A stretch of 56,522 nucleotides of DNA from Escherichia phage PDP46, in the sequence record PQ783785; one strand, 5' to 3'. The number at the start of each line of letters is the position of its first letter. The first letter of the stretch is position 1. The notes beneath the pieces are model-generated. The model saw only the letters and a list, made by a program, of their open reading frames with translations. It searched no databases and was not told the origin of the DNA. Positions 25,224 through 25,565 of the stretch are shown here, one piece after another. The position numbers were made by a program, and so were the translations under genes.

Positions 25224-25487
25224 TTATATTTTACCCTCCTGCATCAACCCTTCAGCAACAGTCATTTGGTAACGTGGTGCTTTCCATGCTTGAAGTGCTT
25301 TTTCAGCACCTTTTTGTGTTTTATACGGTTTGATACTTGTTAAAATAGCAGTTGTAATACCTGCACCATAACCACGGTCTGTTTCCTGACAAACTCGAAA
25401 CAAACCATCAATTTGTTTAACTACTAAACGTTTGAACGCAATATTGCCCGTTTCTTTGTTAATGTAGCATTGAATTACCCGTTCCAT
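25224..25487 (-). CDS. Moron-like hypothetical protein with its own early promoter
   Basis: 87-aa ORF on the opposite strand inside the tail cluster; GAGGG RBS; driven by promoter copy 9. Confidence 0.5.
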   Translation of the reverse strand: MERVIQCYINKETGNIAFKRLVVKQIDGLFRVCQETDRGYGAGITTAILTSIKPYKTQKGAEKALQAWKAPRYQMTVAEGLMQEGKI

Positions 25488-25517
25488 TATTTTAACCCTC
25501 AGTTCGTTTCGTTGAGT

Positions 25518-25565
25518 TAAAGATACCTTAACAGATGTAATTCGTCAAGAATTATTTTAAATCTC
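25518..25565 (-). promoter_or_regulatory. Conserved early promoter copy 9 (-35 TTGACG, -10 TATCTT)
   Basis: Motif GATGTAATTCGTCAAGAATTATTTTAAAT; -35 at ~25543-25548. Confidence 0.65.

What the first reader, a model, noticed from the sequence alone, without database searches (positions are those of the whole stretch)
25224..25565. Opposite-strand moron between major tail and chaperone genes
An 87-aa gene with promoter copy 9 and a GAGGG RBS is inserted antisense inside the otherwise rightward tail operon, between the major tail terminator and the chaperone gene. Its transcript would run antisense toward the major tail gene, since no good minus-strand terminator follows.
Basis: seen in the sequence. 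Interest (0 to 1): 0.42.

Follow-up and report, generated by a model that had tools for sequence, protein, structure and literature searches.

The report
Swappable antisense gene in tail operon
A small accessory gene of unknown function, with its own promoter, sits backwards between two tail genes of a 9NA-like phage, in a slot where related phages carry other small genes or nothing; it is a real but fairly ordinary phage "moron".

Summary
Window 25224-25487 (-) is a real 87-aa gene: dN/dS is 0.04-0.17 against relatives. It has a GAGGG Shine-Dalgarno and the ninth of 13 near-identical copies of this phage's promoter block, TTTAAAATAATTCTTGACGGATTACA.

The window is a Sashavirus/9NA-like siphophage, 97% identical to phage Bas82 here. 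The gene sits in a variable slot between the major tail tube terminator and the tail assembly chaperone. In 17 related genomes the slot holds this gene, one of five unrelated ORFs (207, 63, 55, 53 or 36 aa), or nothing. Every occupied slot keeps the same promoter, leader and Shine-Dalgarno up to the start codon. Empty slots lack the promoter too.

The protein (PHROG 27467) is soluble and basic (pI 9.6). It has no Pfam, PADLOC, PDB-sequence or PDB-fold match. It occurs in 58 of 50,697 phage records across several unrelated lineages of Enterobacterales phages. It was not found in complete E. coli genomes or in plasmids.

"Moron" is supported. Antisense run-through into the tail gene fits the sequence but is untested: a strong hairpin follows the stop codon, with no U-tract. 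Function is unknown. My best guess is a dispensable host-directed or counter-defence protein. This is a new member of a known kind, of modest interest.

The parts
23720..25177 (+). Major tail tube gene (485 aa). It is the left neighbour, convergent with the 87-aa gene.
   Evidence: Pfam Phage_tube_2, E = 2.2e-17. Annotated as major tail tube protein in Sasha, AVIO78A and PJ16.
25198..25215 (.). GC-rich hairpin, GCCCGGTGTTAACCGGGC. On the + strand it is followed by TTTTTTGTTT and is the intrinsic terminator of the major tail gene. On the - strand it lies 8 nt after the moron's stop codon and is followed by AACCACUACC, with no U-tract. It marks the left boundary of the variable slot.
   Evidence: Conserved in all relatives, including those with an empty slot.
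25222..25565 (.). Approximate extent of the insertion/deletion relative to empty-slot relatives (PJ16, L012, L015, L020).
   Evidence: Alignments. Intergenic length is 449 nt here against 105-112 nt in empty genomes.
25224..25487 (-). 87-aa ORF, PHROG 27467. The product is soluble and basic: 9.8 kDa, pI 9.55. The model has four beta strands followed by two helices.
   Evidence: dN/dS is 0.04-0.17. 25 homologous protein clusters. 58 phage records.
25488..25513 (-). Predicted short 5' leader containing the SD GAGGG (25500-25496). The transcription start near 25513 is inferred from the -10 position. The leader is unstructured, and it is conserved in front of six different cargo ORFs.
   Evidence: MFE -3.3 kcal/mol, z = +1.05. 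Alignment of occupied slots.
25520..25525 (-). -10 hexamer, TATCTT.
   Evidence: The consensus across the 13 copies is TAnnnT.
25543..25548 (-). -35 hexamer, TTGACG. Spacer to the -10 is 17 nt.
25549..25562 (-). A/T-rich UP-element-like block, (T)TTAAAATAATTC. It is part of the 27-nt promoter block repeated 13 times in the window.
   Evidence: (families D6, D11).
25566..25626 (+). Conserved sequence upstream of the chaperone gene (TTGCGTAATTTGTACAGAACTATTACTATCT..., SD AAGG). It is present in empty-slot relatives too and marks the right boundary of the slot. It may be a weak rightward promoter: -35 matches 3 of 6 and -10 matches 4 of 6, by my own reading.
   Evidence: The consensus scan did not call it a promoter.
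25627..26345 (+). Tail assembly chaperone (25627-26049) with its frameshift extension (26061-26345). It is the right neighbour, divergent from the 87-aa gene.
   Evidence: phrog_8233, 3e-48 and 2e-25; Phage_TAC_18. Annotated with ribosomal slippage in Sasha and AVIO78A.

Best explanation
This is a dispensable, independently transcribed accessory gene (a moron). It occupies a fixed 'expression slot' that 9NA-like phages keep between the major tail tube terminator and the tail assembly chaperone.

Proposed mechanism:
1. Host sigma-70 RNA polymerase recognises one of the phage's 13 stereotyped promoters: an A/T-rich UP-like block, TTGACG at -35, a 17-nt spacer and a TAnnnT -10. Shown at sequence level only.
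2. Transcription runs leftwards, independently of and opposite to the rightward tail operon. Inferred.
3. A leader of about 26 nt, unstructured and carrying a GAGGG SD, gives efficient translation of a 9.8-kDa soluble basic protein. Inferred.
4. The RNA ends at, or leaks past, the hairpin shared with the tail gene. Any run-on antisense RNA is probably ended by Rho. Inferred.
5. The protein acts in the host cytoplasm in a role that is useful but not essential and has nothing to do with tail assembly. My best guess is host takeover or counter-defence, possibly through nucleic-acid binding. This step has low confidence, about 0.3.

Among relatives the slot is refilled ORF for ORF. Recombination replaces only the coding sequence, while the promoter, leader and SD on one side and the terminator on the other stay in place.
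For: Real gene:
- dN/dS is 0.04-0.17.
- Full-length match to phrog_27467, E = 4.8e-40.
- 25 homologous clusters, nearly all exactly 87 aa.

Own expression module:
- The promoter copy has 1 mismatch to the 20-nt core.
- 12 copies lie 56-63 nt before an SD and ORF.
- The leader is unstructured.

Dispensable and swappable:
- The slot holds the 87-aa gene in the window, Bas82, L013, KP13-27 and L018.
- It holds a 207-aa ORF in Sasha, VLCpiS10a and L014 (frameshifted there).
- It holds a 55-aa ORF in AVIO78A, 53 aa in L017, 63 aa in L019 and 36 aa in 9NA.
- It is empty, with no promoter, in PJ16, L012, L015 and L020.
- Homology between different cargos runs through the promoter, leader and SD and stops at the start codon. 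On the other side it resumes at the terminator, a few nt after the stop codon.
- The copy in 536P12 carries a +1 frameshift in a poly-A run.

Not a tail component:
- It is on the opposite strand and is absent from phages whose flanking tail genes are about 96% identical in DNA.
- Homologues lie next to helicase or replication genes in Wifcevirus and Jedunavirus.
- One is the first gene of an operon of small genes in Greed-like phages.
- One sits among small ORFs near e.6 in T4-like Serratia phage PS2.

Mobile among phages:
- It is in 58 of 50,697 phage records, in several unrelated lineages.
- There is no DNA match in 5,426 complete E. coli genomes and no protein match in 72,556 plasmids.
- The same gene is again a lone antisense gene inside a structural cluster, convergent on a late-gene terminator, in an unrelated 48.5-kb phage (terminase | 87 aa | portal) and in Cornellvirus W5_chr3.

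Soluble and basic:
- pI 9.55 and a maximum Kyte-Doolittle 19-residue value of 0.60.

Published background:
Against: - There are no transcription or protein data for any member of the family.
- The protein has no informative homology: none in Pfam, PADLOC, PDB sequences or PDB folds (best Foldseek E = 0.29). The only significant match among viral models is a homologue. The proposed cytoplasmic host-directed role therefore rests on context alone.
- The same promoter type also heads rightward genes (17525, 49774, 52001). 'Early' timing cannot be deduced from the promoter.
- Bas82, which carries the gene, is reported as markedly sensitive to restriction-modification systems and to the Old defence system (PMC11990801). 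No protective effect is evident against those systems.
- The window's allele has Cys at position 7, where all 23 aligned relatives have Arg. This particular copy could be impaired.
Confidence: 0.75

Rival explanations
1. The slot's main job is regulatory. Leftward transcription from the conserved promoter makes antisense RNA against the major tail gene, or collides with polymerases reading through the tail terminator. Either effect would tune the timing or ratio of tail tube to chaperone and tape-measure expression. On this view the ORF is a passenger.
For: - The promoter, leader and SD are better conserved across relatives than the cargo, which is replaced by unrelated ORFs.
- There is no U-tract after the minus-strand hairpin, and no consensus minus-strand terminator for more than 3 kb.
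- The same convergent layout on a late-gene terminator recurs in an unrelated phage.
Against: - Four of 17 related genomes have neither the promoter nor a cargo, yet keep the same tail genes. The antisense function cannot be essential.
- The ORF is under strong purifying selection, and it is conserved in phages where it is co-oriented with its neighbours.
- The downstream antisense RNA is untranslated and C-rich. From general knowledge, Rho is then expected to terminate it early.
Confidence: 0.12
2. The 87-aa protein is a tail-assembly or virion accessory factor. It would be placed among the tail genes because it works with them.
For: Its position between the tail tube and chaperone genes. Homologues in L024, W5_chr3 and BUCT618 also lie within or beside structural clusters.
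Against: - It is on the opposite strand with its own promoter.
- It is absent from, or replaced in, relatives whose flanking tail DNA is 94-97% identical.
- In Wifcevirus, Jedunavirus, Greed-like and T4-like phages it lies in replication or small-gene regions.
- The major tail, chaperone and tape-measure genes are complete without it.
Confidence: 0.05
3. It is a decaying or neutral hitch-hiker: an ORF retained only because it sits in a recombination hot spot, with no current function in this phage.
For: - 536P12 has a frameshift.
- The 207-aa cargo is frameshifted in L014, and 9NA keeps only a 36-aa ORF.
- The window allele has an R7C change at an otherwise invariant Arg.
- Empty slots exist.
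Against: - dN/dS is about 0.1 between the E. coli and Klebsiella clade copies: 22-25 synonymous against 12-13 non-synonymous differences.
- The 87-aa length and the C-terminal EGLMQEGKI motif are kept across lineages with only about 60-65% identity.
- The 536P12 frameshift lies in a homopolymer and may be a sequencing error.
Confidence: 0.08

Closest known systems
Morons of lambdoid phages; the archetype is HK97 gene 15, between the tail assembly chaperone and tape measure genes (Cumby et al. 2012, PMC3594210)
   Same: - A single small gene with its own promoter lies between tail genes next to a terminator.
- It is present in some genomes and absent from close relatives.
- Its base composition differs from that of the neighbouring major tail gene.
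- A second slot in this phage group, between the chaperone and the tape measure, carries an Imm-type superinfection-immunity gene in Bas82 and PJ16. That is the position of HK97 gene 15.
   Different: - Classical morons are defined by expression from a repressed prophage. 9NA-like phages are virulent (PMC4153490).
- This gene is antisense to the operon.
- Its promoter is the phage's own repeated promoter rather than imported DNA.
- It has no convincing terminator of its own.
- The product is soluble, not a membrane exclusion protein.
PeSL (promoter-early stem-loop) regulatory cassettes of T4-type phages, which mediate modular shuffling of small non-essential ORFs (Arbiol et al. 2010, PMC2839356)
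   Same: - A strong sigma-70-like promoter motif is repeated many times in one virulent phage genome.
- It flanks small genes of unknown function that are inserted, deleted or replaced between close relatives.
- Stem-loop terminators bound the units.
- Repeated regulatory sequence is a plausible substrate for recombination. The same 18-nt leader occurs at a second site in one Klebsiella 9NA-like genome.
   Different: - Here the promoter is not fused to a stem-loop as one composite motif.
- The slot lies inside the late tail operon and is antisense, not in a hyperplastic early region.
- Exchange is precise to the ORF.
- Mini-circles could not be tested.
The small novel genes interspersed among the virion genes of 9NA-like phages (Casjens et al. 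2014, PMC4153490; Zeng et al. 2019, J Virol, was not available to read)
   Same: This gene is the smallest of several opposite-strand islands embedded in the morphogenesis cluster. Each island is headed by one copy of the same promoter block. It is already annotated as a hypothetical protein in Bas82 (Bas82_0044) and KP13-27.
   Different: I could not find any statement in the papers I could read about the slot's alternative cargos, the conserved promoter-leader platform or the repeated promoter block.
PHROG 27467 (function unknown)
   Same: Full-length match, 1-87 of 87, E = 4.8e-40.
   Different: No member of this family has been characterised. A full-text search for the conserved C-terminal motif found no paper.

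Membership tests
Moron (as defined in PMC3594210) | An extra DNA segment present in one phage and absent at the same site in close relatives. | tested here: met
   The site spans 449 nt here against 105-112 nt in PJ16, L012, L015 and L020. The flanks align base for base.
Moron (as defined in PMC3594210) | Own promoter. | tested here: met
   Met at sequence level only. TTGACG, 17 nt, TATCTT plus a UP-like block. It is one of 13 near-identical copies, each placed 56-63 nt before an ORF. Promoter activity was not measured.
Moron (as defined in PMC3594210) | Own terminator. | tested here: inconclusive
   A strong hairpin, shared with the convergent tail gene, lies 8 nt after the stop codon. There is no U-tract on the minus strand.
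Moron (as defined in PMC3594210) | Base composition differs from the surrounding genes. | tested here: inconclusive
   GC is 37.9% against 47.5% for the major tail gene and 43.7% for the whole window. The chaperone gene is also low, at 39.7%.
Moron (as defined in PMC3594210) | Expressed from a repressed prophage to benefit the lysogen. | tested here: not met
   The phage group is described as virulent, with no lysogeny genes (PMC4153490). There is no DNA match in 5,426 complete E. coli genomes. It is therefore a moron in architecture only.
PeSL-type regulatory cassette (PMC2839356) | A strong sigma-70-like promoter motif repeated through the genome next to small non-essential ORFs. | tested here: met
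   13 copies of a 27-nt block. 12 of them head ORFs.
PeSL-type regulatory cassette (PMC2839356) | The promoter is joined to a stem-loop terminator in one composite motif. | tested here: not met
   No hairpin adjoins the promoter at 25520-25562. The only hairpin is at the far end of the ORF and belongs to the tail gene.
PeSL-type regulatory cassette (PMC2839356) | Insertions, deletions and replacements between close relatives are bounded by the motifs. | tested here: met
   Six different cargos and an empty state are bounded by the promoter-leader-SD on one side and the terminator on the other.
PeSL-type regulatory cassette (PMC2839356) | Formation of excised mini-circles. | not testable with these tools
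   This needs PCR or sequencing of phage DNA.
PHROG 27467 | Significant full-length match to the family profile. | tested here: met
   E = 4.8e-40, residues 1-87 aligned to profile positions 1-87.
WGR domain (PF05406); a lead from a weak Foldseek hit and a similar order of strands | Match to the Pfam profile, or profile similarity to a genuine WGR domain. | tested here: not met
   No Pfam hit for any of 24 family members at E <= 10. hhalign of the family against the PARP-1 WGR gave probability 0.06%; that sequence was verified as WGR at 2.8e-23. Foldseek to 2cr9 gave E = 2.5 and TM 0.40.
YegP/DUF1508-like; a lead from the motif ILTS..YKT...AEKA | Profile similarity to YegP. | tested here: inconclusive
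There was no Pfam DUF1508 hit. No YegP structure appeared among the top 50 Foldseek hits.

The most novel reading that the evidence does not exclude
The site is a dedicated cassette slot. It would be a fixed promoter-leader-SD platform, backed against a terminator, into which 9NA-like phages of E. coli, Salmonella and Klebsiella swap unrelated ORFs precisely from start codon to stop codon. The phage's repeated regulatory sequences would serve as the recombination substrate. The cargos, including this 87-aa protein with no detectable fold relative that is shared by several unrelated lineages of Enterobacterales phages, would be host-specific counter-defence or takeover effectors.
Probability: 0.3. 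Interest if true: 0.55.

Novelty: new member of a known kind. Interest (0 to 1): 0.3.

Why it matters
For this gene alone the importance is modest. It is one more uncharacterised accessory gene in a little-studied phage group, and it is already annotated as a hypothetical protein in GenBank relatives.

The comparative picture is more useful.
- The slot gives a natural set of near-isogenic phages: the same tail genes and the same promoter, with six different cargos or none. That set is ready-made for testing what such small genes do, for example host range or sensitivity to defence systems.
- The conserved promoter-leader platform is a candidate site for engineering insertions into 9NA-like phages.
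- The 87-aa family is compact, strongly conserved and confined to phages in these collections. Its confident predicted structure has no match in the PDB. That makes it a reasonable target for structural and interaction studies.

Tried and rejected
Searches for the protein's function that found nothing:
- Pfam: only DUF1391, at E = 0.05 and below the family's cut-off.
- PADLOC.
- PDB sequence profile: 0 hits at E <= 10.
- Foldseek against the PDB: best E = 0.29.
- Foldseek against BFVD: only the Serratia PS2 homologue.
- Profile search of 1.84 billion representative proteins: 11 clusters, all family members or fragments.

WGR-domain idea: rejected.

YegP/DUF1508 idea, and a possible relationship between the 87-aa family and the 55-aa cargo of AVIO78A: hhalign probabilities were 1-1.6%, so both are unsupported.

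A regulatory RNA structure in the leader: rejected. The MFE is -3.3 kcal/mol and 173 of 200 shuffles fold at least as well. Rfam gave only sub-threshold Trp-leader hits, located at the other terminator.

Copies of the alternative cargos elsewhere in this window: none by tblastn.

A repeated late-promoter motif upstream of the chaperone gene: the 35-nt sequence is unique in the window. TGTACAGAAC is not enriched, with 9 matches against 5.5 expected.

Functions of the alternative cargos: no Pfam, PHROG or PADLOC annotation for any of them.

Literature: Zeng et al. 2019 could not be read. A search for the conserved C-terminal motif found no paper.

Full report
**What is there**

The window carries an ATG-initiated 87-codon ORF on the minus strand at 25224-25487. 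It lies between two rightward tail genes:
- the major tail tube gene, 23720-25177 (Pfam Phage_tube_2, E = 2.2e-17);
- the tail assembly chaperone, 25627-26049, with its frameshift extension at 26061-26345 (phrog_8233, Phage_TAC_18).

A GAGGG Shine-Dalgarno sits 8 nt before the ATG. Upstream on the same strand there is a TTGACG -35, a 17-nt spacer and a TATCTT -10, preceded by the A/T-rich block TTTAAAATAATTC.

- The 20-nt core AATAATTCTTGACGGATTAC has 14 matches with at most 3 mismatches. Thirteen have an intact TTGAC -35, and the one at 25556-25537 is the ninth by position.
- Twelve copies are followed, 56-63 nt after the -35, by an SD and an ORF of 62-247 aa.
- Chance cannot produce this: a 33-nt stretch of this copy has no match in 100 shuffles.
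- The consensus is gTTTAAAATAATTC-TTGACG-gATTACA-N9-10-TAnnnT.

**Where the window comes from**

The region is 97% identical to Escherichia phage KarinMuster_Bas82 and 96% identical to Sashavirus 536P12. It is more distantly related to Sasha, Sergei, Solent, AVIO78A, PJ16, 9NA and a Klebsiella clade. The window is therefore a 9NA-like (Sashavirus/Nonanavirus) siphophage.

This group is described as virulent. [quoted passage not shown]

Mapping the Bas82 annotation onto the window shows what those genes are. They form opposite-strand islands embedded in the morphogenesis cluster, and each island is headed by one copy of the promoter block. The 87-aa gene is the smallest such island.

**The gene is real**

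Nei-Gojobori comparisons give the following:

| Comparison | dN/dS | Synonymous / non-synonymous differences |
|---|---|---|
| Window vs the two Klebsiella-clade copies (KP13-27, L018) | 0.10-0.11 | 22-25 / 12-13 |
| Between the two Klebsiella-clade copies | 0.04 | 15 / 3 |
| 9NA-like copies vs the Rogunavirinae copy (MM01) | 0.15-0.17 | 37-38 / 44-47 |

Comparisons with more distant lineages are saturated at synonymous sites. Across 24 homologues the length is almost always exactly 87 aa, and the C-terminus EGLMQEGKI is nearly invariant.

**The site is a variable slot**

I compared 17 related genomes or contigs.

| Slot content | Genomes or contigs |
|---|---|
| 87-aa gene | window, Bas82, L013, KP13-27, L018 |
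| Unrelated 207-aa ORF (phrog_30881) | Sasha, VLCpiS10a, L014 (frameshifted there) |
| 55-aa ORF (phrog_20712) | AVIO78A |
| 53-aa ORF | L017 |
| 63-aa ORF | L019 |
| Unannotated GTG-start 36-aa ORF | 9NA (appears twice in the set, as GenBank record L008 and IMG/VR contig L016) |
| Nothing (105-112 nt) | PJ16, L012, L015, L020 |

- Every occupied slot has the promoter block. Empty slots do not.
- Aligning the occupied slots shows that the promoter, the leader (TCAACGAAACGAACTGAGGG) and the SD are conserved right up to the start codon. Similarity ends there.
- On the other side, similarity resumes at the tail-gene terminator, a few nucleotides after the stop codon.
- The unit exchanged between occupied genomes is thus the bare ORF. 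The unit missing from empty genomes is the ORF plus promoter, about 25222-25565.
- Both the E. coli/Salmonella clade and the Klebsiella clade contain 87-aa, 207-aa and empty states. That implies repeated exchange or loss rather than a single insertion.
- The 18-nt leader also occurs at a second site in one Klebsiella 9NA-like contig, behind another promoter copy and in front of a 132-aa ORF. Repeated regulatory sequence is therefore available as a recombination substrate.

**Transcript ends**

- The leader is unstructured: MFE -3.3 kcal/mol, z = +1.05. The SD should be accessible, and nothing suggests a riboswitch or attenuator. Rfam finds nothing relevant.
- On the plus strand, the hairpin at 25198-25215 followed by TTTTTTGTTT is a canonical terminator for the tail tube gene.
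- On the minus strand the same 7-bp hairpin (centroid structure -13.9 kcal/mol) starts 8 nt after the stop codon, but it is followed by AACCACUACC. The consensus scan finds no minus-strand terminator until about 21772.
- Whether RNA actually extends into the tail gene is unknown. The downstream RNA is untranslated and has a C/G ratio of 1.2-1.8 over about 350 nt. From general knowledge of Rho-dependent suppression of antisense transcription, Rho would be expected to act on such RNA. That is an inference, not a result.

**The protein**

- It is 9.8 kDa with pI 9.55 and no hydrophobic segment.
- AlphaFold2 with the family alignment gives a confident model, mean pLDDT 86.4. It has four beta strands (residues 2-9, 16-26, 29-37, 45-48) followed by helices at 58-67 and 77-84.
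- There is no significant match in Pfam, PADLOC, PDB sequences or PDB folds (best E = 0.29).
- Among viral models the only significant match is the Serratia phage PS2 homologue.
- A profile search of 1.84 billion representative proteins finds only 11 clusters.
- Two leads suggested by weak hits and by eye, the WGR domain and YegP/DUF1508, were tested and not supported.

**Distribution and context of homologues**

tblastn finds the gene in 58 of 50,697 phage records. They include:
- all listed Wifcevirus myophages;
- a group of 55-60-kb siphophages (CAjan, Greed, SLUR25, GottfriedDienst, CSP1);
- a Cornellvirus and a Rogunavirinae phage;
- T4-like Serratia phages;
- roughly 147-kb Klebsiella and Pectobacterium phages.

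There is no DNA match in 5,426 complete E. coli genomes and no protein match in 72,556 plasmids.

Contexts differ from lineage to lineage:
- just downstream of the helicase gene in Wifcevirus and Jedunavirus;
- the last gene of a leftward operon in MM01;
- the first gene of an operon of small genes after a 457-nt gap in Greed-like phages;
- among small ORFs near e.6 in PS2.

In two further lineages it is again a lone antisense gene inside a structural cluster.
- In an unrelated 48.5-kb phage it lies between the large terminase and portal genes. It has its own UP-like block, a TTGACG promoter and a shared convergent hairpin.
- The same arrangement is seen in Cornellvirus W5_chr3.

The gene is therefore a horizontally mobile, self-sufficient single-gene unit, and it is not tied to tail function.

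**Interpretation**

The architecture fits 'moron' in every respect that can be read from sequence, with two exceptions (PMC3594210). It has no convincing terminator of its own, and it lacks the defining biological context of expression from a prophage, because these phages are virulent.

It also resembles the PeSL cassettes of T4-type phages (PMC2839356). Both involve a repeated strong promoter next to small, replaceable, non-essential ORFs. It fails the composite promoter-stem-loop criterion, however.

I therefore file it as a moron-like accessory gene in a conserved expression slot.

Its function is not known. I commit, at about 0.3, to a host-directed cytoplasmic role such as takeover or counter-defence, possibly through nucleic-acid binding. 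The grounds are that the gene is dispensable, mobile among phages of Enterobacterales, absent from the host genomes and plasmids searched, encodes a basic soluble product, and is interchangeable with other small unknown ORFs.

Against a broad protective role, Bas82 carries the gene and is still markedly sensitive to restriction-modification systems and to Old (PMC11990801). 'Early' timing cannot be inferred either, because the same promoter type also heads rightward genes, including the block that leads into the head genes.

**Verdict**

- The moron interpretation is supported. The antisense run-through is plausible but untested.
- The finding is a new member of a known kind. Relatives already annotate the gene as a hypothetical protein, and the interspersed small genes of this phage group have been noted in print.
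- The ORF-precise cargo slot with a conserved promoter-leader platform is the most interesting aspect and would repay a small experimental study.
- Interest: 0.3.

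Noticed in passing
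window 26345-26417 (compare Bas82 L001 2942-4037 and PJ16 L004 2695-3487): [quoted passage not shown] It is empty here, holding only a hairpin at 26334-26355 that looks bidirectional. In Bas82 and PJ16 it holds a minus-strand Imm-type superinfection-immunity gene (PF14373) and a T5orf172/DUF723 endonuclease gene. This is the position of the original HK97 moron, gene 15.
   Followed up: partly
window, 13 sites: 1477, 3584, 5302, 8738, 10961, 12103, 17221, 25547, 44416, 44479 (-); 17534, 49783, 52010 (+): The 27-nt promoter block TTTAAAATAATTCTTGACGGATTACA is conserved well beyond the -35 hexamer, including the spacer GGATTACA. That is more than RNA polymerase contacts alone would explain, so it may also be a binding site for a phage regulator.
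   Followed up: partly
window 25469 (codon 7 of the 87-aa gene); L030 (536P12): The window's allele has TGC (Cys) at codon 7, where all 23 aligned relatives have Arg. The 536P12 copy has one extra A in a poly-A run near codon 59. That is either a frameshift or a homopolymer sequencing error.
   Followed up: partly
L008 (phage 9NA) 1888-1998, minus strand: Phage 9NA keeps the promoter, leader and SD at this slot, followed by an unannotated GTG-start 36-aa ORF. The ORF matches the N-terminal half of phrog_10407 (E = 6e-9). It is probably a truncated cargo.
   Followed up: partly
L036 (1830, minus strand) and L037-L041: The exact 18-nt leader CAACGAAACGAACTGAGG recurs at a second site in one Klebsiella 9NA-like contig, with the promoter, before a 132-aa ORF. 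It also recurs without that promoter before 94-aa ORFs in five other viral contigs of 38-53 kb.
   Followed up: no
window 4598-4852: A long imperfect repeat of CAGCAGCAT and CAGCAGCAC/AAG units, with 9-15-nt periods, lies inside the minus-strand ORF 5243..4590. That is the first gene after the promoter at 5302.
   Followed up: no
window 41550-41897: A periodic repeat with 12-, 18- and 30-nt spacings; 16 overlapping copies of a 114-nt unit. It probably encodes a repetitive protein segment.
   Followed up: no
window 55494-55653 and 17768-17839: Two tandem 21-nt repeats. The first has six copies of CTACAGGTGCCTCCACTCGTG. The second has three copies of TGTTGAACCGGTAACGACTGC.
   Followed up: no
window 17-208, 17238-17439, 56231-56517: A 100-nt repeat (17340-17439 against 56418-56517, 91% identical) lies together with clusters of iteron-like 25-35-nt repeats. 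These flank the divergent promoter region near 17.2-17.5 kb and the window ends. They could be origin, pac or regulatory repeats.
   Followed up: no
window 21543-21573 and 21686-21716: A perfect 31-nt direct repeat, CGCCGGATAAACGTAACCGGCACATAACAGA, with copies 143 nt apart, inside the rightward structural region.
   Followed up: no
window 5348, 11009, 25576 (+ strand): TGTACAGAAC (one mismatch at 11009) lies 20-40 nt to the right of three leftward promoter copies, upstream of rightward late genes (terminase, chaperone). It is not enriched in the window overall, with 9 matches against 5.5 expected, so it may be chance or a late-promoter element.
   Followed up: partly
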